This document shows, one piece after another, positions 26,083 to 61,075 of a stretch of 61,075 bases of DNA. Within the stretch, counting starts at the first letter, position 1. Every line of letters begins with the position of its first letter. A model generated the notes under the pieces. That model worked only from the letters and a program-made list of their open reading frames with translations, did no database searches and was not told where the DNA came from. Origin of the DNA: a virus (taxonomy: Duplodnaviria > Caudoviricetes). Where the stretch lies: positions 1 to 61,075 of the IMG/VR virus record IMGVR_UViG_3300010354_000093. The stretch is one strand, 5' to 3'. Position numbers and translations under genes: made by a program.

Positions 26083-27279
26083 TTAATATAAAGCGTTCCA
26101 ACTTGTTCCGTTATAAAATACAGGATAAGCTCCGCCAGTTCCCTTTGAAGCAGGATCCCAATTAGTTCTGTCTGCAACAGCAAATACACCGGCGCTTATT
26201 CCAGTAGGAGCAGCTGACAATGGAGATAACCTTAAAAATTTACTTGCTTCAACTGCTCCTTGAACTACCATCGATCCAGTCGAACTACCTGTTGCAAATA
26301 CAAAATCACTAGCAGAAGTGTATGTAGGAACCCCAGTACCAGAACTGGTCAAAGTTGTTGCTGTTACTGTGCCCCCTACTGTTAAATTTGTGCCGTCAAA
26401 CGTTAAATTTGCACTACCAGCAAATGCTCCGTTATTATTAAATTGAACTTGAGTATTAGATCCCCCTGGATTTGTTGATCCGCCACCGCCACCGCCTGCT
26501 GCCGAAATAGTTATAGTATCTGTAGTAGCATTTGTAGTGATAGTAATATTAGCGCCTGCAACAAATGTTAAAGTATCTATACTACTGTCTGCAACAATGT
26601 TACTTTGTCCAGCTACAGCAATAGTGTTAAAAGAGTTTACTGTTCCAGTAGCAGCAATTGTTACAGAATCTGTATTAGCATCAGTGGTTAAAGAAATACC
26701 AGAACCGGCAACTAAAGTTAAAATATCTTCCGGAACGTCTGCAATAGCATCTGCCTGGCCAGTAATACGAATTGTCCCAAAAGAGCTTGGTAATGCCGGA
26801 GATCCTTGATCAGCAGCAGTTATAGTAATCGAGTCTGTTGCAGCATTTGTAGTAATGGTGATATTATTGCCTGCTACTAAAGTTAACACATCGGTAGGGC
26901 TATTTGCAAGAACACTACTTTGTCCTGATACTGCTATTGTTGAAAATGAGTTTGATGGAGGGCTTCCGCCGGCGCCAATGTCGTCTTCGCCGTTATACCA
27001 AGCTGTTCCATTATATTTTAACACTTGTCCAGATAGCGGAGTATTGATTACAACATCGGTGAGTCCGTCTAAATTCGATGCGCCACTTCCTCCTCCACCG
27101 CCGTTTGCTAAAACCCAGGCACGAGTAGCTAGTATCGATCCTCCAATTAAAGACCCGTTGTATACTCTTAAGGTATTACTACTAGAGTCCCAAAAAACTT
27201 CCCCTGGTTCATAGGCAAACTTGTTTAAAGTTTGCGTGCCTTGCGATTTTAATCTAACTGAGCGTAACGGTGTTGTCAT
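26083..27279 (-). CDS. repeat-containing tail fibre-like protein
   Basis: LDGLTDVVI...GQVLKYNGTAW, three ~50-aa repeats SF.TI.V.GQ....A....D.LTLVAG..I.ITT.A.TD..TI, PGGSNTQVQFN. Confidence 0.7.
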   Translation of the reverse strand: MTTPLRSVRLKSQGTQTLNKFAYEPGEVFWDSSSNTLRVYNGSLIGGSILATRAWVLANGGGGGSGASNLDGLTDVVINTPLSGQVLKYNGTAWYNGEDDIGAGGSPPSNSFSTIAVSGQSSVLANSPTDVLTLVAGNNITITTNAATDSITITAADQGSPALPSSFGTIRITGQADAIADVPEDILTLVAGSGISLTTDANTDSVTIAATGTVNSFNTIAVAGQSNIVADSSIDTLTFVAGANITITTNATTDTITISAAGGGGGGSTNPGGSNTQVQFNNNGAFAGSANLTFDGTNLTVGGTVTATTLTSSGTGVPTYTSASDFVFATGSSTGSMVVQGAVEASKFLRLSPLSAAPTGISAGVFAVADRTNWDPASKGTGGAYPVFYNGTSWNALY

Positions 27280-56693: not shown

Positions 56694-58468
56694 TTAAAAT
56701 AAAGGAACTAACTGTCAAAAACTTTATGAGTGTGGGAAATCAAACCCAAGCTGTAGATTTTGGCAAGGAGAATCTAACACTTGTACTAGGTGAAAACTTA
56801 GATCAGGGTGGAGATGACAGCGGAAGCCGTAACGGTACTGGCAAAACAACCATTGTTAATGCACTAAGTTATGCATTATTTGGTACAGCGTTAACTAACA
56901 TTAAAAAAGATAATCTTATTAACAAGATTAACAATAAGAACATGTTAGTTACCCTAGCCTTTAATAAGGATGGCACAGACTATCGAATTGAAAGAGGGCG
57001 AAAGCCAAATGTTTTAAAGTTCTATGTAAACGATCAAGAGCAAGAAACAGAAGAATCCGATGATTCGCAGGGAGATATGCGTGAAACTCAGAAAGACCTA
57101 GACGACTTGTTAGGCATGAGTCACGACATGTTCAAACATATTGTAGCTCTTAATACATATACTGAGCCATTCCTTAGTATGAAGGCCAATGATCAACGTG
57201 CAATTATTGAACAGTTGCTAGGCATTACACTACTAAGTGAAAAAGCTGAAAACTTAAAAGAGCTTATTAGGCAAACTAAAGATGCTATTGTACAAGAAAC
57301 TGCTGATATCGAAGCAATTAAGAAATCTAATGAGAAAATTCAGCAAAGCATCGACAGTTTACTCACTAGACAAACGGCTTGGAACAAACAACACGAGCAG
57401 GATCTAGAAAAAATTGCCCGAGCTATTGTAGAATTAGAGAGCGTAGACATTGAAGCAGAGCTGGCACACCATGCTCTGCAAAAAGCCTATGCGGAGCATA
57501 GCGCAAAGCTCAAGAGCCTGAATAAGGAACGGGCTACGTTAGAAAGCGCGACAGCGCAAGCGGAGCGAAGCGTCACGAAGTATGACGGCGAGCTCGCCAA
57601 ATTGGCAAATAAGACCTGTCACGCTTGTGATAATAAGCTACAAGATCACAAACATGAAGAAATGACTGCGGATGCCGCTGTTAACTTAGCTGATGCTCAG
57701 AAGTATTTGGACAAGGTTACTGCTGACCTTAACAAGATACAGTCGGAAATTAAGGCTATTGGTGAGCTGACCAGGCCTGCCGACACTTATTATGAAACAG
57801 TTGAAGAGGCTCTTAAGCATCAAAACAACTTACAGACACTGGAAACACAGTATACAATTAAACTTGGTGAAGTCGACCCTTACCAAGAACAAATTGATGA
57901 ACTTACTAATACAGCATTGCAGGAAGTCCAATGGGATACTGTTAATGAACTGACTACACTAAAGGAACATCAAGAGTTCCTACTTAAATTACTAACAAGT
58001 AAAGACAGTTTCATTCGTAAGAAGATCATAGATCAGAACCTAGCATACCTTAATAATAGATTAACCTATTACTTGGACAAGATGGGATTGCCGCATACCG
58101 TGGTATTCCAGAATGATCTGACCGTTGAAATTACCCAGCTGGGTCAAGACTTAGACTTTGACAACCTAAGTCGTGGGGAACGAAATAGACTTATACTTGG
58201 CTTGTCCTGGGCATTTAGAGATGTTTGGGAAAGTTTATACCAAAACATCAATTTGTTGTTTGTCGACGAGCTAGTTGACAATGGCTTGGATGCATCTGGT
58301 GTTGAAAACGCACTGGCAGTATTGAAAAAGATGGCTCGTGAGCGCAAGAAGAACATTTATCTAATCAGCCACAAGGATGAACTGATCGGTCGTGTTAACA
58401 ATGTACTCAAAGTTATCAAGGAAAACGGCTTTACCAGCTATGCAAACGACTTAGAGGTATCAGAATGA
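56690..58468 (+). CDS. recombination ATPase subunit (gp46 / Rad50-SbcC-like)
   Basis: KNFMSVG, NGTGKT Walker A, coiled coil with CHAC zinc hook, LSRGE signature, LFVDE Walker B, ISH. Confidence 0.93.
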   Translation: MIKIKELTVKNFMSVGNQTQAVDFGKENLTLVLGENLDQGGDDSGSRNGTGKTTIVNALSYALFGTALTNIKKDNLINKINNKNMLVTLAFNKDGTDYRIERGRKPNVLKFYVNDQEQETEESDDSQGDMRETQKDLDDLLGMSHDMFKHIVALNTYTEPFLSMKANDQRAIIEQLLGITLLSEKAENLKELIRQTKDAIVQETADIEAIKKSNEKIQQSIDSLLTRQTAWNKQHEQDLEKIARAIVELESVDIEAELAHHALQKAYAEHSAKLKSLNKERATLESATAQAERSVTKYDGELAKLANKTCHACDNKLQDHKHEEMTADAAVNLADAQKYLDKVTADLNKIQSEIKAIGELTRPADTYYETVEEALKHQNNLQTLETQYTIKLGEVDPYQEQIDELTNTALQEVQWDTVNELTTLKEHQEFLLKLLTSKDSFIRKKIIDQNLAYLNNRLTYYLDKMGLPHTVVFQNDLTVEITQLGQDLDFDNLSRGERNRLILGLSWAFRDVWESLYQNINLLFVDELVDNGLDASGVENALAVLKKMARERKKNIYLISHKDELIGRVNNVLKVIKENGFTSYANDLEVSE

Positions 58469-58914
58469 CTGTAGGATTTACTTGCAGCACATTTGATTTG
58501 TTTCACGCAGGGCATATTATCATGCTTAAAGAAGCAAAGTCAGTGTGCGACTATTTGATTGTGGGTCTACAAACAGATCCTACTATTGATCGCAAGGAAA
58601 AGAACAAACCAGTTCAAAGTATTTTTGAACGTTATGTTCAGCTACAGGCCTGCAAGTATGTTGACGAGATCGTAGTTTATGCTACAGAAAAAGATCTTGT
58701 GGACATACTGCTCAGTTACCCAATTAATATCAGAATACTAGGCGACGAATACGAACATAAGGCATTTACCGGCAGGCAAGAATGTATACAAAAAGGCATC
58801 AAATTTTATTTTAACAAAAGAGAGCATACATTTAGCACTACAGAGTTAAGACAGCGTGTCATTGACTGTGAAGCAGACAAATTTATGTCAAGGGCCAATG
58901 AGCAAACACGTTGA
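58465..58914 (+). CDS. cytidylyltransferase (TagD/glycerol-3-phosphate CT-like)
   Basis: FDLFHAGH (HxGH), LIVGL.TD, ER...L.ACKYVDEI, R....STT. Confidence 0.85.
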   Translation: MTVGFTCSTFDLFHAGHIIMLKEAKSVCDYLIVGLQTDPTIDRKEKNKPVQSIFERYVQLQACKYVDEIVVYATEKDLVDILLSYPINIRILGDEYEHKAFTGRQECIQKGIKFYFNKREHTFSTTELRQRVIDCEADKFMSRANEQTR

Positions 58915-59152
58915 ACCATTAGATTATCAAGATGAAGAAACTCATGAACAGCTGATGACGGCGTTTCGTGAGTATTTCAAGTCTAATCAAGAATGGGTCA
59001 ACAAAGGCACACGTAGGGCAGGAGAGAACAGTCGTTACTGGCTTGCCCAAATTAGAATCATAGCTAAGGCTCGCAGAGAAAAAATACAGCAATATCGTGT
59101 TCATTTGGACAGAACTAAGGCTCAAAAGAAAGGCTCGGCAGAGGAAGAGTAG
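58898..59152 (+). CDS. small basic protein, possibly histone H1-like (Hc1 family)
   Basis: F..Y......KGTRRAGENSR..L..I...AK.RR resembles the KGNKAAGxRAR core of Hc1-like proteins. Confidence 0.45.
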   Translation: MSKHVEPLDYQDEETHEQLMTAFREYFKSNQEWVNKGTRRAGENSRYWLAQIRIIAKARREKIQQYRVHLDRTKAQKKGSAEEE

Positions 59153-59164
59153 ACTACATAGTTG

Positions 59165-59608
59165 ATGTATTGGACGTATCAACAAAAATCAGTAGAAGAA
59201 ATTCCAGAAGGCGTAATTGGCTTCGTTTATCTTATTACAAATCTCACCACCGGGCAAAAGTACATAGGCAAAAAACTAGCACAGTTTAAGCGTACCAAAC
59301 CACCACTCAAAGGCAAAAAACTTAAAAGACGTTCCGTAGTTGAAAGCGATTGGCGTGACTATTGGGGATCGTCGGATAGGTTACAAGCAGACGTTCAAGC
59401 ATTAGGTCCGGAAAAATTCACAAGAGAAATAATTTATTATTGCAAAAGCAAAGCAGAAATGTCTTACTTAGAGGCAAGAGAACAATTTGAACGGCGTGTA
59501 CTAGAGACTGACGAATACTATAACGGCATTATCAACGTTAGAGTGGGCGGGTCAGCTATCCTAAGACAGCGGTTAATAGAACAAGCACAGGCGAAATCAA
59601 ACGGTTAA
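59165..59608 (+). CDS. GIY-YIG endonuclease (catalytic domain only)
   Basis: GFVYLITN....KYIGKK, YWGSS, FTREII, LEAREQ (catalytic Glu), YYN; no extended C-terminal DNA-binding domain. Confidence 0.85.
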   Translation: MYWTYQQKSVEEIPEGVIGFVYLITNLTTGQKYIGKKLAQFKRTKPPLKGKKLKRRSVVESDWRDYWGSSDRLQADVQALGPEKFTREIIYYCKSKAEMSYLEAREQFERRVLETDEYYNGIINVRVGGSAILRQRLIEQAQAKSNG

Positions 59609-59610
59609 TG

Positions 59611-59955
59611 GCTAGCGCAGGCCAAATTCGTGCGCTCTATACCTGGACCCAGGGTCGCAGGGACGGAAATCTCTCGCCGTTAAGAGTACTCAACCACTAC
59701 CCGAAAGGATGTTGATCGCTAATAAGACCTGCGATTTGGTTGTTTGAACAGGATTTAAGGCAAAAAGAAGGGTAATTCCCTAACGGACATATAGGTGATA
59801 GCATGTCTATATGTACCTGCCGTCGGATAAAGACGCTGCTCGTGGTACCGGCCGACCGCCACTGTAATGCAGTAATGCTATGTGACTGCGCTACTCAGAT
59901 GATGCGAATCTTTGCCCTATGCGGGCAAAGTGTGACCACTTAATCTAGATGATAC
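59611..59955 (+). ncRNA. candidate large structured non-coding RNA (unidentified family)
   Basis: No ORF; GC-richer than the genome; many helices incl. TAGCGCAG 59613-20/CTGCGCTA 59886-93, CAACCA 59691-96/TGGTTG 59737-42, CC-GAAA-GG, ACATATAGG 59787-95/TCTATATGT 59806-14 with loop ATAGCAT pairing to ATGCTAT 59875-81, CTTTGCCC 59910-17/GGGCAAAG 59923-30. Confidence 0.65.
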
Positions 59956-59960
59956 TAAAT

Positions 59961-60021
59961 CGCTTCGCTTTAAAAATGCTTCGAGTCTTTAGACGAAGAA
60001 GCAAACGAACGCAGTTCGTTT
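59961..60021. other. cluster of hairpins (GNA-triloop mini-hairpins)
   Basis: GCGAAGCG on the - strand (59961-59968); TGCTTC/GAAGCA stem 59977-60003; AAACGAAC-GCA-GTTCGTTT 60003-60021. Confidence 0.6.
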
Positions 60022-60028
60022 ATAAATA
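60021..60028 (+). promoter_or_regulatory. T4-type late promoter TATAAATA
   Basis: Exact T4 gp55 consensus, 22 nt before ATG 60051. Confidence 0.75.
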
Positions 60029-60050
60029 AAGGTATTATCGGAATAATATT

Positions 60051-61075
60051 ATGTCTTTAACTTTTTCACAAAGATTAATTGTAGAAGAAAAATTAAACGA
60101 AGGTCGAATTCTCTTAGAGGATATATGCCGAGGTTTAACTGAAGAACAAAATAAAATAATTAGAGGAATATATAGAGAGTTTTTACCGTTAATTGAAGCA
60201 ACATTAACTACAGATCAAATATCCCAATTATTTAAAAATGTAGAGCAATCAGCAACTGCTAGTGGATCTAACAGAACTGGGTTGGGAAAAGCCGCAGATG
60301 TTGCAAAATTACCAGTCCAAGCAGTTCAAAAAGTTAACGATATTATTAACAAAGCAGGGCAGTGGGCGCAAAACACTAAACCTGTACAGGCGTTTGATCA
60401 AAAATTTGAAGAACTAAAAGCAAAGATTAGTGCTAAGTTTCCAAATTTAACTCAAAACTTAACTCAAGCAGGAGAATGGGCTAAGGCAAATCCTGGAAAA
60501 ACCGCAGTGATTATCGGTGTGTTAACCGCCGTTGCATCATTAGCGGGAGGACCTTTAGGTGGTGCTATCGCAGGTCAAATACTAAGAGGTACTACTGAAT
60601 TAATGAAAGGCGAAAAACTTTCAACTGCGATCGGAAAAGGTATTAAAACTGCGGCTTTAGGTTACTTATCTGGTAAAGCCTTTGAAATGTTGGGAAAATT
60701 CGTAGAGGGAATGAGAGTTGAAGCATTGCCTGTTCCTGGGGCTGAGGAATCTGGGTTAGCCACTGTTAACTACGGGGCTACTAGAACTATTACAGGTCCG
60801 GGCACAGAATGGAAACAGACTGTGCAAGGATTTAATGTCACGGTATTTCCTGAACAACAGACAGCCATTAATGACGCTATGAGTATGATCCGTAATGGTC
60901 AACCCGGCGGTTTTGATCTATTGAAAACTATCGCCCAGGAGATTAGATCTCCTGAATACAGGGCTGCGATCAAAGATATAATGGTCAATGCTCGTGCAGA
61001 CCAATTGGCCAATGACGGATTACTAAAATGGATCAATGGCATGGCCCAAGCAGGTCAAAGTCTTAGTCAAGGTGC
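60051..61075 (+). CDS. late protein, probably virion-internal (3'-truncated; absent from the ORF track)
   Basis: Open frame from ATG 60051 to the window end: MSLTFSQRLIVEEKLNEGRILLEDICRGLTEEQ...KTAVIIGVLTAVASLAGGPLGGAIAG... Confidence 0.8.
   Translation, partial: MSLTFSQRLIVEEKLNEGRILLEDICRGLTEEQNKIIRGIYREFLPLIEATLTTDQISQLFKNVEQSATASGSNRTGLGKAADVAKLPVQAVQKVNDIINKAGQWAQNTKPVQAFDQKFEELKAKISAKFPNLTQNLTQAGEWAKANPGKTAVIIGVLTAVASLAGGPLGGAIAGQILRGTTELMKGEKLSTAIGKGIKTAALGYLSGKAFEMLGKFVEGMRVEALPVPGAEESGLATVNYGATRTITGPGTEWKQTVQGFNVTVFPEQQTAINDAMSMIRNGQPGGFDLLKTIAQEIRSPEYRAAIKDIMVNARADQLANDGLLKWINGMAQAGQSLSQG

What the first reader, a model, noticed from the sequence alone, without database searches (positions are those of the whole stretch)
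59611..59955. ~345-nt ornate non-coding RNA candidate with long-range helices and pseudoknots
Seen, in the only long ORF-free stretch of a densely coding window: an 8-bp long-range helix TAGCGCAG(59613-20)/CTGCGCTA(59886-93); a three-way junction closed by CAACCA/TGGTTG(59691-59742) holding CC-GAAA-GG and GATCGC/GCGATT; a 9-bp stem 59787-95/59806-14 whose loop ATAGCAT(59798-804) is perfectly complementary to ATGCTAT(59875-81), a pseudoknot; GACGG/CCGTT(59662-81) with loop CTCT able to pair with AGAG(59683-86); hairpins CGTC/GACG, ACTG/CAGT and CTTTGCCC/GGGCAAAG. GGTCGCAGG(59653-61) can pair with either CCTGCGATT(59728-36) or TGTGACC(59931-37), suggesting alternative folds. G-U wobbles favour the + strand as RNA. 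I do not recognise it as tRNA, tmRNA, RNase P or a group I/II intron. Inference: a new large phage ncRNA (ribozyme, scaffold, or ColE1 RNA II-like replication primer).
Basis: partly seen in the sequence, partly recalled or inferred. Interest (0 to 1): 0.85.

Follow-up and report, generated by a model that had tools for sequence, protein, structure and literature searches.

The report
Large structured phage RNA, partly known
The candidate is a real non-coding RNA of about 410 bases carried by a lineage of very large T4-like freshwater phages; its first third is an already catalogued RNA motif of unknown function, while the pseudoknotted remainder is not in the catalogue.

Summary
Real feature, only partly new. 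Window 59610-59745 (+) is a full-length, high-scoring match to Rfam RF01718, Polynucleobacter-1 (118.7 bits, cut-off 37). That family is a 2010 bioinformatic motif of unknown function. The RNA does not stop there. The next ~280 nt, to ~60021, are conserved directly behind the motif in 88 of 100 related viral loci searched. All 12 misses are contig ends or chance pattern hits. A 15-helix model with three pseudoknots has 89.7% of cells paired, against 33-43% when slid, and 69 of 89 pairs change on both sides.

Its 8-bp long-range helix holds only in a subset. Three small helices and both alternative pairings are not supported.

The RNA follows a GIY-YIG gene in 110 of 121 loci. That protein occurs without the RNA in a cultured relative, and seven bacterial copies of the motif lie beside a DUF6641 gene instead. 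A free-standing trans-acting RNA is therefore most likely.

Two single-stranded 7-8-nt elements always stay identical to each other, which is unexplained. Function is unknown.

The parts
59610..59745 (+). 5' domain: a full-length copy of Rfam RF01718 (Polynucleobacter-1). Helices: P1 59615-19/59631-35; P2 59643-49/59653-60; P3 59671-74/59683-86; P4 59691-96/59737-42, which closes a three-way junction with the small CC/GG helix 59701-02/59707-08 and P5 59714-19/59731-36.
   Evidence: cmscan gives 118.7 bits against a gathering score of 37, E 3.4e-25, model positions 1-141 of 141. On A1, P1 is 99.2% paired with 5 of 5 pairs changed on both sides, and the three outer pairs of P3 are 99% paired (the fourth 55%). 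In P4 the pair 59694/59739 reads CG 35, UA 28.
59610..59623 (+). PK1: the 5' end GGC (59610-12) pairs with GCC (59621-23) in the P1 loop. This pseudoknot is not in the Rfam model.
   Evidence: 90% of cells are paired. The middle pair reads GC 55, AU 11, other 8. GGC/GCC, AGC/GCT and GAC/GTC variants are visible in A1.
59746..59957 (+). 3' domain, not modelled by Rfam. It holds the conserved A-rich joiner AGGCAAAAAGA (59758-68), the P6 hairpin (59770-72/59778-80; a GNRA-looped hairpin of variable length in relatives), P7, PK2, P8, P9, P10, segment 1, P11 and segment 2.
   Evidence: It is conserved directly 3' of the motif. A covariance model built on it (R1: 207 positions, 31 pairs) finds 88 of 100 viral loci at E <= 1e-5. 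No Rfam family matches it, even at E <= 10.
59787..59814 (+). P7: a 10-bp hairpin (59787-96/59805-14). Its loop (59797-59804) carries the 5' strand of pseudoknot PK2.
   Evidence: 87-90% of cells are paired and 10 of 10 pairs change on both sides (helices 14 and 15).
59798..59881 (+). PK2: the loop AUAGCAU (59798-804) pairs with AUGCUAU (59875-81).
   Evidence: 90.3% of cells are paired and 7 of 7 pairs change on both sides (helix 16). By mutual information, pair 59803/59876 reads GC 48, AU 17, and pair 59798/59881 reads UA 28, AU 25.
59822..59872 (+). Pseudoknotted core. P8 is 59822-26/59852-56; its 3' strand lies in the P10 loop. P9 is 59836-39/59869-72. P10 is 59842-46/59858-62. The core includes the nearly invariant GGUACCGG....ACCGCC.
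   Evidence: P8 is 96.9% paired with 4 of 5 pairs changed on both sides. P9 is 90.2% paired with 4 of 4 (pair 59836/59872 reads GC 33, CG 24). P10 is 97% paired (helices 17-19).
59881..59905 (+). Segment 1: UGUGAC, six variable bases, ACUC, then R1 (AGAUGAU at 59897-59903, followed by GC). It is single-stranded in the consensus model.
   Evidence: The variable positions of R1 are always the same as those of R2.
59910..59930 (+). P11: the hairpin CUUUGCCC/GGGCAAAG, lying between the two segments.
   Evidence: 93.7% of cells are paired and 5 of 8 pairs change on both sides (helix 20).
59931..59955 (+). Segment 2: UGUGAC, six variable bases, AUCU, then R2 (AGAUGAU at 59947-59953, followed by AC). 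It is a direct repeat of segment 1.
   Evidence: Identity covariation with R1: 59897/59947 GG 39, AA 29; 59901/59951 AA 35, GG 34; 59903/59953 UU 45, AA 17, GG 7; 59898/59948 GG 59, CC 7. The elements stay identical or nearly so in the divergent subgroup as well.
59957..59972 (+). P12: a small hairpin with a CUUCG-type loop. It is weak in this window (2 pairs) and has 5-8 pairs in many relatives. A linker of variable length follows.
   Evidence: The motif is found in 51 of 71 sequences and the stem has 4 or more pairs in 29 of them. The count was made on a column-filtered alignment, so it is approximate.
59978..60002 (+). P13: a hairpin GCUUC/GAAGC that encloses the conserved GAG...CGA(A) internal loop (a tandem-G-A type).
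   Evidence: 74% of cells are paired in A1, where this stretch is poorly aligned, and 4 of 4 pairs change on both sides (helix 22). GAG is invariant.
60003..60021 (+). P14: a terminator-like hairpin AAACGAAC/GUUCGUUU, taken as the likely 3' end of the RNA unit. In most relatives the next genes converge on it from the minus strand.
   Evidence: 92.1% of cells are paired and 7 of 8 pairs change on both sides (helix 23). The terminator scan finds it on the minus strand. Conservation drops after about 60028.
60021..60028 (+). TATAAATA, the octamer of T4 late promoters (the consensus is recalled, not from a call), lying 22 nt before the start codon of the next gene.
   Evidence: It is the only copy in the window, where 9.4 would be expected by chance.
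59162..59608 (+). Upstream gene: a 148-aa protein that is a GIY-YIG nuclease domain only. Its stop codon lies 1 nt before the RNA. It is a syntenic neighbour and is probably co-transcribed with the RNA.
   Evidence: Pfam PF19835 SegE_GIY-YIG, E 2.3e-35, profile 1-123 of 123. A homologue lies upstream on the same strand in 110 of 121 loci. The motif residues are conserved across 86 distinct sequences.
60051..61073 (+). Downstream gene, running off the window end, with no family match. It is not a conserved neighbour of the RNA.
   Evidence: No Pfam or PHROGs hit. Its family follows the RNA in only 12 of 121 loci.

Best explanation
Window 59610 to about 60021 (+ strand) is one non-coding RNA gene of about 410 nt.

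Shown: its first 136 nt are a complete Polynucleobacter-1 motif (Rfam RF01718). The following ~280 nt always accompany that motif in related phages. They fold into a second domain with two further pseudoknots, then three hairpins, the last of which looks like a terminator.

Inferred: the RNA is made as the tail of the transcript that carries the GIY-YIG gene. It then acts as a free-standing, trans-acting folded RNA. It is not a leader of the next gene, and it is not an obligate cofactor of the nuclease gene beside it. It belongs to the pool of RNAs carried by mobile elements: the 5' domain also occurs sporadically in genomic-island-like regions of freshwater betaproteobacteria.

My guess at the mechanism, held weakly: the fold is a scaffold that displays two identical single-stranded 7-8-nt elements, R1 and R2. 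These would be two equivalent docking sites for one partner sequence, most likely a nucleic acid, and that partner is still unidentified.
For: Identity: cmscan gives 118.7 bits against a cut-off of 37.

Extent: the stretch 59746 to about 60025 is conserved behind the motif. The covariance model of the 3' domain hits 88 of 100 viral loci. All 12 misses are either cut by a contig end (7) or chance pattern hits (5).

Structure: 89.7% of cells are paired, against 33-43% in the slid controls. 69 of 89 pairs change on both sides. None of 500 shuffles reaches the observed value on any measure.

Strand: two nearly invariant G-U pairs fit only the + strand.

Not a leader: downstream gene families differ between loci. 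A minus-strand baseplate gene follows in 68 loci, and the window's own downstream family in only 12.

Not bound to the nuclease:
- Phage Melnitz-3 has a 65%-identical GIY-YIG protein but no RF01718 match in its whole 141-kb genome.
- One locus has a PDDEXK nuclease in that position.
- Seven loci have an extra ORF between the nuclease gene and the RNA.
- All 7 bacterial copies of the motif lack a GIY-YIG gene and lie beside DUF6641.

Mobile-element flavour: RF01718 was found in 1 of 151 genomes of one bacterial family. A short tyrosine recombinase gene lies just 3' of the RNA in 3 of 7 bacterial places.

Co-transcription: no sigma-70-like promoter was found on the + strand between 58520 and 60019. 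Contigs from RNA libraries of four studies bridge the ORF/RNA junction.

R1 = R2: these column pairs rank 4th, 7th and 9th of all column pairs by mutual information. The elements stay identical or nearly so in divergent variants: GGAUAAU, GCAUAAU and AGUCAAG in both copies, with CGACAGG against UGACAAG the least alike.
Against: The minimum-free-energy z-scores are not significant: -0.47 on the + strand.

There is no direct evidence for a discrete transcript or for its ends. The RNA-library data are assembled contigs, which can contain DNA and cannot show strand or ends.

No partner for R1 and R2 was found. The only consistent complement in cis is the nearly invariant UUGUUU at 59739-45, which fits in 32 of 71 sequences and overlaps P4. 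No recurrent complement turned up in the flanking loci or in the window.

The RNA and the GIY-YIG gene are neighbours in nearly every phage locus, so a functional link in phages is not excluded.

The phage 3' domain could not be detected in the bacterial copies: the best match was 12.6 bits, E 0.054, on the wrong strand. The phage RNA and the bacterial RNA may therefore do different things.
Confidence: 0.55

Rival explanations
1. The RNA is a cofactor or guide of the adjacent small nuclease, giving a GIY-YIG ribonucleoprotein. The analogy is the RNAs beside IscB and TnpB nucleases, which lie next to or overlap the nuclease gene.
For: A GIY-YIG homologue lies directly upstream on the same strand in 110 of 121 loci. 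In 103 of those 110, its stop codon lies between 140 nt before and 6 nt after the RNA start. The protein is a bare nuclease domain of 148 aa with conserved catalytic-type residues and a basic insert, and it has no recognisable DNA-binding domain. In one locus a different nuclease (PDDEXK) holds the same place.
Against: The closest cultured relative has the protein (65% identity) and no such RNA. The protein family is spread over 483 cultured phage records, while blastn of the RNA found none of them. Bacterial copies of the RNA motif have no GIY-YIG neighbour. Seven loci carry an inserted ORF between the two. No hypervariable guide-like end was seen. The gene order around the pair is conserved as a whole, so the adjacency may be plain synteny.
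Confidence: 0.1
2. It is a cis-acting element of an mRNA. Either it is a 5' leader or riboswitch of the downstream gene, which is how Polynucleobacter-1 was classed in 2010, or it is a 3' UTR that controls or stabilises the GIY-YIG message.
For: The table in the 2010 paper marks the motif 'y' for cis-regulatory (passage read). The RNA starts 1 nt after the stop codon of the upstream ORF, and no promoter of its own was found. In a subset of sequences the 5' strand of P1 has two alternative partners, which is a switch-like feature.
Against: The downstream genes differ between loci, and in most loci they lie on the opposite strand. A terminator-like hairpin and a late-promoter-like octamer separate the RNA from the next gene. 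About 410 nt with three pseudoknots is far more than known 3' UTR stabilisers need (general knowledge). In bacteria the RNA stands alone, divergent from its neighbour.
Confidence: 0.1
3. It is a ribozyme, or an RNA-only multimeric assembly of the GOLLD or ROOL type, whose chemistry or architecture rather than base-pairing with a partner is the function.
For: Its size, its pseudoknots and its stretches of invariant unpaired bases (CAGGGAnGGAA, CACUA, GGUACCGG..ACCGCC) resemble those of large catalytic or architectural RNAs (the comparison is general knowledge). It is phage-borne, as GOLLD and ROOL are (abstract seen).
Against: No Rfam ribozyme or large-RNA family matches, even at E <= 10. No cleavage-site signature was seen. 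This reading gives no reason for R1 and R2 to stay identical.
Confidence: 0.15
4. The stretch is not an RNA gene. It would instead be a protein-coding region or a DNA-level element such as an origin, iterons or a homing-endonuclease target.
For: A minus-strand ORF of about 81 aa overlaps the region in 36 loci (cluster 6). Two co-varying direct repeats could be read as iterons. Nuclease genes and extra ORFs cluster next to the stretch.
Against: The window has no ORF above 46 aa here. Compensatory Watson-Crick and G-U changes occur in 15 helices, with conserved G-U pairs on one strand only. A covariance model scores it at 118.7 bits.
Confidence: 0.03

Closest known systems
Rfam RF01718, Polynucleobacter-1 RNA motif (Weinberg et al. 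2010, Genome Biol 11:R31)
   Same: Window 59610-59745 matches the whole 141-position model at 118.7 bits. All model helices are present and covary. The habitat also fits: the 2010 table lists Burkholderiales and fresh water or estuary.
   Different: The family model covers only the first third of the RNA. Here the motif is always followed by a second domain of about 210 nt and three more hairpins. A pseudoknot between the 5' end and the P1 loop is not in the model. The family was classed as probably cis-regulatory, and the gene context here argues against that.
Large ornate phage-associated RNAs of unknown function (GOLLD, ROOL)
   Same: It is a large, pseudoknotted non-coding RNA carried by phages, with bacterial copies in mobile-element-like regions and no known function. 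The comparison rests on general knowledge and on the abstract of PMC12286853.
   Different: There is no sequence or structure match to those Rfam families. It is smaller, at about 410 nt. No tRNA genes lie nearby. Multimer formation was not tested.
Nuclease-associated guide RNAs (omega RNAs of IscB and TnpB, formerly HEARO)
   Same: A structured RNA abuts the gene of a small nuclease.
   Different: The nuclease is of the GIY-YIG type. The protein occurs without the RNA, and the RNA occurs without the protein. There is no transposon context and no variable guide end.
IS110 bridge RNAs (two-loop guide RNAs)
   Same: Two modules of like build each carry a module-specific variable part, and they share a part that must be identical. 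In bacteria a recombinase gene lies just 3' of the motif in 3 of 7 places. The resemblance is recalled and was not tested.
   Different: There is no DEDD recombinase. The phages have no tyrosine recombinase either, in 0 of 5 large contigs. The two-module 3' domain was not detected in the bacterial copies that do have the recombinase.

Membership tests
Rfam RF01718 Polynucleobacter-1 | The covariance-model score reaches the curated gathering score of 37 bits over the full model. | tested here: met
   118.7 bits, E 3.4e-25, model positions 1-141 of 141, window 59610-59745 on the + strand.
Rfam RF01718 Polynucleobacter-1 | The model's helices are kept through compensatory changes in homologues. 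| tested here: met
   P1 is 99.2% paired, P3's three outer pairs 99% (the fourth 55%), P4 92% and P5 90-92%, all with changes on both sides.
Rfam RF01718 Polynucleobacter-1 | The motif lies in the 5' UTR of a conserved downstream gene. The 2010 paper marked it 'y' for cis-regulatory. | tested here: not met
   The downstream families vary, and in 68 loci the downstream gene is on the opposite strand. This is an interpretation attached to the family, not a criterion of the model.
Group I intron (Rfam RF00028) | A match to the intron core model, and flanking exons of one gene. | tested here: not met
   No hit, even at E <= 10, in window 59400-60150. The flanking ORFs are unrelated genes.
tRNA / tmRNA | Detection by ARAGORN or by the Rfam tRNA/tmRNA clan. 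| tested here: not met
   ARAGORN finds 0 genes in the window. The only Rfam match is a chance-level mt-tmRNA hit of 16.6 bits against a cut-off of 65, outside the RNA core.
GOLLD, ROOL, OLE and HEARO large RNAs | A match to the corresponding Rfam model. | tested here: not met
   No such hit at the gathering threshold over the window, nor at E <= 10 over 59400-60150.
Nuclease guide RNA (omega-RNA-like) | The RNA and its nuclease always occur together. | tested here: not met
   Melnitz-3 has the nuclease and no RNA. All 7 bacterial RNA places lack a GIY-YIG gene.
Nuclease guide RNA (omega-RNA-like) | The RNA binds the nuclease and directs its cleavage. | not testable with these tools
   This needs biochemistry.
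ColE1 RNA II-like replication primer | A persistent RNA-DNA hybrid forms at an origin and is processed to prime DNA synthesis. | not testable with these tools
   No sequence-level criterion is available, and no Rfam hit to the plasmid RNA I/II families was seen.

The most novel reading that the evidence does not exclude
The 3' domain would be a two-module adaptor. Each module (UGUGAC, six module-specific bases, then a 7-8-nt element) would pair with one nucleic-acid site. The 7-8-nt elements must be identical because the two sites share a common core, as the two partner sites of a recombination or strand-exchange reaction do. On this reading the RNA would be a bridge-RNA-like, RNA-programmed device for bringing two DNA or RNA sites together. 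Alternatively it could be a template whose identical ends allow reiterative copying. It would work with enzymes encoded next to it: nucleases in phages, and short tyrosine recombinases that appear to consist of the catalytic domain only in bacteria.
Probability: 0.1. Interest if true: 0.9.

Novelty: new variant of a known kind. Interest (0 to 1): 0.6.

Why it matters
Large bacterial and phage RNAs with complex, conserved tertiary structure are few, and several of those whose function has been worked out are catalytic or form ribonucleoproteins. These results indicate that a motif catalogued since 2010 as a 141-nt, probably cis-regulatory element is, in phages, only the first domain of an RNA of about 410 nt with three pseudoknots. 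That RNA is present as a single copy in a widespread lineage of very large T4-like freshwater phages, in each of the five large contigs searched. This changes what should be synthesised and probed, namely the whole RNA, and what kind of function to look for, namely a trans-acting one. The two elements that are always identical to each other are an unusual constraint that can be tested directly. If they prove to be twin pairing sites, the RNA would join the small set of natural RNAs that address two nucleic-acid sites at once.

Tried and rejected
- blastn ('distant' mode) of window 59550-60060 against 50,697 cultured phage records found no match. No cultured phage in that collection carries the RNA at that sensitivity.
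- mafft-qinsi, a structure-aware aligner, is not installed. G-INS-i was used instead.
- The pattern scan of genome contigs returned 120 loci, most of them chance hits. nhmmer kept 7.
- The covariance model of the phage 3' domain was run against the bacterial loci. It found nothing with default filters and nothing credible with filters off: the best match was 12.6 bits, E 0.054, on the wrong strand. An nhmmer alignment of locus L169 runs through the 3' part, but at low posterior probability. I therefore do not claim that the bacterial copies have the 3' domain.
- DUF6641 was sought in the window and in 5 large phage contigs and was not found. In the second of these searches the control genomes did not ring either, so that blank is weak.
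- A tyrosine recombinase was sought in the 5 large phage contigs and was not found, with all controls positive.
- A partner for R1 and R2 was sought. The only cis complement is UUGUUU at 59739-45, in 32 of 71 sequences. The 7-mers and their complements are not enriched in the window. No recurrent complement of 9-11 nt was found in 624 kb of flanking loci.
- A rolling-circle template that encodes a protein is unlikely. By eye, the 50-nt unit between R1 and R2 in the window has stop codons on both strands. This was not computed across homologues.
- Reads: no RNA-library contig was laid beyond about 59980 or on the downstream gene. The habitats of runs holding only small shares are not used either.
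- The five ORFs that sit between the GIY-YIG gene and the RNA in seven loci have no PHROGs family, and the four of them also put to Pfam have no Pfam family. Whether they are homing endonucleases stays open.
- An apparent second ORF-free gap at 26190-26536 was an artefact of my ORF filter. A minus-strand ORF at 26083-27279 covers it.
- The supplementary files of the 2010 paper, which hold the per-motif descriptions, could not be read. They may say more about the motif's extent and gene context than I could check.
Full report
**What is at the coordinates**

The stretch 59609-60050 is the only ORF-free gap above 250 nt in a window that is about 97% coding. Its G+C is 0.47 against 0.37 for the whole window.

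An Rfam scan of the whole window gives a single hit at the gathering threshold. It is RF01718, Polynucleobacter-1, at 59610-59745 on the + strand, with 118.7 bits against a cut-off of 37, E 3.4e-25, covering model positions 1-141 of 141 (alignment).

The only paper in the held library that names this motif is Weinberg et al. 2010 (PMC2864571; search). I read the table passage only. It lists the motif as a likely RNA, likely cis-regulatory, found in Burkholderiales and fresh water or estuary.

No other Rfam family matches 59400-60150, even at E <= 10. ARAGORN finds no tRNA or tmRNA in the window.

In these loci the sequence behind the motif is also conserved. blastn of window 59746-60050 gives 99 hit lines at 70-84% identity, always directly 3' of the motif. 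Column conservation stays high to about 60025 and then collapses just before the start codon at 60051 (104 sequences).

I built a covariance model on this 3' part alone (R1: 207 positions, 31 pairs). It finds 88 of the 100 loci L002-L101 at E <= 1e-5. Of the 12 misses, 7 are loci where the contig ends right after the 5' domain. The other 5 (L032, L037, L045, L078, L098) are chance pattern matches with no similarity to the RNA. In phages the two parts therefore always go together.

Each of five large related contigs carries exactly one copy. One of them is 345 kb and is rated 99% complete. The window itself is a viral record rated 17% complete. By arithmetic, the phage genome is of the same very large size.

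**Structure**

On a 75-sequence non-redundant alignment (A1; 4 rows are the chance outliers) I counted a model of 89 pairs. The model was derived from the Rfam structure plus a mutual-information scan.
- 89.7% of cells are paired, against 33-43% when the 3' partners are slid by 1-3 columns.
- 69 of 89 pairs change on both sides.
- None of 500 shuffles reaches the observed value on any of the five measures.

The supported helices, in window coordinates:
- P1: 59615-19/59631-35
- PK1: 59610-12/59621-23 (a new pseudoknot)
- P2: 59643-49/59653-60
- P3: 59671-74/59683-86
- P4: 59691-96/59737-42
- The CC/GG helix: 59701-02/59707-08
- P5: 59714-19/59731-36
- P7: 59787-96/59805-14
- PK2: 59798-804/59875-81
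- P8: 59822-26/59852-56 (its 3' strand lies in the P10 loop, so it is a second pseudoknot of the 3' domain)
- P9: 59836-39/59869-72
- P10: 59842-46/59858-62
- P11: 59910-17/59923-30
- P13: 59978-82/59998-60002
- P14: 60003-10/60014-21

P6 (59770-72/59778-80) is poorly aligned in A1, at 53% paired. It covaries in the better alignment, where pair 59771/59780 reads GC 37, UA 12, CG 9, AU 4.

Two G-U pairs are nearly invariant: G59714-U59736 in 66 of 74 sequences with letters there, and U59846-G59858 in 72 of 73. On the other strand they would be conserved mismatches, so the + strand is the RNA.

The minimum-free-energy test does not detect any of this. Its z-score is -0.47 on the + strand, and 31 of 100 shuffles fold at least as well. 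For a pseudoknotted RNA I give it little weight against the covariation.

Confirmed: the three-way junction and its arms, the 9-bp stem, the loop pseudoknot and the CTTTGCCC hairpin. CTCT/AGAG is also confirmed, but as an ordinary hairpin stem rather than a pseudoknot on top of GACGG/CCGTT.

Not supported: GACGG/CCGTT (69.7% paired) and ACTG/CAGT (40.9% paired). CGTC/GACG is ambiguous. The covarying alternatives that use the same bases are P8 and P9.

Both alternative pairings of GGTCGCAGG do no better than shuffles.

The 8-bp long-range helix is perfect in this window and in a few relatives, with matching changes (GCGCAG/CTGCGC against GCACAG/CTGTGC). A register-free count gives 6 or more contiguous pairs in only 16 of 71 sequences. 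The mean longest helix is 4.66, against 4.41 +/- 0.10 for permuted partners. It uses the 5' strand of P1, which is paired in 99% of cells. In another subset the same six-base stretch instead pairs with its counterpart in segment 2, with 6 pairs in 12 of 71 sequences. I read these as lineage-specific, possibly alternative, contacts.

**An unexplained constraint**

Flanking hairpin P11 are two direct repeats of like build. Each has UGUGAC, six variable bases, A plus three pyrimidines, then a 7-8-nt element (R1 at 59897-59903, R2 at 59947-59953).

The variable positions of R1 and R2 are always the same base:
- 59897/59947: GG 39, AA 29
- 59901/59951: AA 35, GG 34
- 59903/59953: UU 45, AA 17, GG 7
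- 59898/59948: GG 59, CC 7

These rank 4th, 7th and 9th among all column pairs by corrected mutual information. All combinations of the variants occur. In the divergent subgroup the two elements are identical (AGUCAAG in both; AGGAUAAU in both) or nearly so (CGACAGG against UGACAAG; GGAGAAA against AGAGAAA).

Such identity covariation means that both elements answer to one and the same partner. I could not find that partner. The only cis complement is the invariant UUGUUU, which overlaps P4. There is no enrichment in the window and no recurrent complement in the flanks.

**Context in phages**

The upstream ORF (59162-59608) is a 148-aa protein that consists of a GIY-YIG domain only (PF19835, E 2.3e-35). 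A homologue lies upstream on the same strand in 110 of 121 loci. The 11 exceptions are 5 chance loci, 5 loci where the contig ends, and 1 locus (L075) where a PDDEXK nuclease (PF24608) sits in that place. In 7 of the 110 loci an extra ORF of 151-334 aa lies between the nuclease gene and the RNA. The five such ORFs I scanned have no family match.

Further upstream lie a gp46/SbcC-like gene and a cytidylyltransferase-like gene. In other loci radical-SAM genes lie there instead. Downstream, most loci have a small minus-strand ORF and a T4-baseplate-family gene on the minus strand. The window's own downstream gene family follows the RNA in only 12 loci.

P14 therefore sits where two transcription directions meet. 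In this window it is followed by the window's only TATAAATA, where 9.4 would be expected by chance. That this octamer is the T4 late-promoter consensus is recalled, not taken from a call. No sigma-70-like promoter was found on the + strand just upstream of the RNA.

Contigs assembled from RNA libraries of four studies cover the ORF and the RNA and bridge the junction between them. One 151-nt contig is identical to the window over the 132 nt (59580-59711) that it shares with it. This fits co-transcription but does not prove it, because the contigs may contain DNA.

**Is the nuclease its partner?**

The protein family is common in cultured T4-like phages of the Kyanoviridae. It occurs in 483 records, where it is often labelled 'NAD synthetase'. 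The closest of these, Methylophilales phage Melnitz-3, has a 65%-identical protein but no RF01718 match anywhere in its 141-kb genome.

Conversely, the motif occurs in bacterial assemblies without any GIY-YIG gene. I found 7 places in 5 genomes at 69-98.5 bits. One genome is an isolate titled Limnohabitans sp. Bal53. The others are metagenome bins titled Comamonadaceae, Sterolibacterium, beta proteobacterium and Nitrospira lenta. In all 7 places the neighbour is a divergently transcribed DUF6641 gene. In 3 of the 7 a short (192-218 aa) tyrosine recombinase gene follows the RNA on the same strand.

The motif is sporadic in bacteria: it was found in 1 of 151 genomes sampled from that bacterial family. 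DUF6641 is wider, in 9 of 151 genomes, and its other loci lack the motif. The phages have neither DUF6641 nor a tyrosine recombinase. The second DUF6641 search had no positive control, so its blank is weak.

The 5' domain is thus shared between mobile-element-like regions of freshwater betaproteobacteria and these phages, with different protein neighbours in each. The phage-type 3' domain could not be detected in the bacterial copies.

**Verdict**

The best-supported reading is a free-standing, trans-acting structured RNA of about 410 nt. It would be made from the tail of an early or middle transcript and ended by P14.

Its biochemical role is unknown. I commit, weakly, to a scaffold that displays two equivalent pairing sites. 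A role as cofactor of the adjacent nuclease, a purely cis-regulatory role, and a ribozyme or self-assembling RNA remain possible, with the odds given in the rival explanations.

Relative to what I could find in print, three things appear new: the 3' domain with its two pseudoknots, the 5' pseudoknot, and the phage lineage that carries the RNA. The print check rests on the search and, which found nothing further. The closed supplements of the 2010 paper are the caveat.

Noticed in passing
L209 3094-3909; L161 1-694; L169 4194-5310; L215 424-1231; L250 4712-5910 and 13647-14460; G006:C28 12649-13415: In bacterial assemblies the Polynucleobacter-1 motif is always paired with a divergently transcribed DUF6641 gene (7 of 7 places). 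No paper in the held library mentions DUF6641. Two genomes carry two such pairs.
   Followed up: partly
L161 1468-2121 (+); L169 5671-6246 (+); L250 3370-3954 (-): A short tyrosine recombinase of 192-218 aa, whose Pfam match covers nearly its whole length, lies just 3' of the bacterial RNA on the same strand in 3 of 7 places. Either the RNA gene serves as an integration site or the two work together.
   Followed up: no
L075 1669-2184 (-): In one divergent phage locus a PDDEXK nuclease (PF24608; by PHROGs a RusA-like resolvase family) takes the place of the GIY-YIG gene directly upstream of the RNA.
   Followed up: partly
window 59700 and 59710 (with 59705): Non-Watson-Crick covariation inside the three-way junction: C...U in 38 sequences against U...C in 33. 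It goes with a change of the small hairpin from CCC-GAAA-GG to UCC-UUnACA-GG. It may be a tertiary contact or two alternative junction designs.
   Followed up: no
window 60021-60028: TATAAATA occurs once in 61 kb where 9.4 would be expected, and it sits 22 nt before a start codon. The octamer seems to be avoided elsewhere in the window.
   Followed up: partly
window 59162-59608 and GenBank phage records: Homologues of this GIY-YIG-domain protein are labelled 'NAD synthetase' in many cultured cyanophage records and in phrog_447. Pfam gives only a GIY-YIG nuclease domain, so the label looks like a propagated mis-annotation.
   Followed up: partly
about 63-308 nt from the RNA start, minus strand, in 36 related loci (cluster 6): A minus-strand ORF of about 81 aa overlaps the RNA in 36 loci but is absent from the window (longest is 35 aa). 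It is probably a by-product of the conserved sequence, but its coding signature was not tested.
   Followed up: no
window 58856-59152 and 58465-58914: A 98-aa ORF with no family match overlaps the end of the cytidylyltransferase-like gene by 59 nt. Its family (76-98 aa) precedes the GIY-YIG gene in 60 loci.
   Followed up: no
L024 467-1492; L108 5115-6488; L054 1988-3217: In some related phages radical-SAM genes (one with a SPASM domain, one with a B12-binding domain) replace the gp46-like gene upstream of the GIY-YIG and RNA pair.
   Followed up: no
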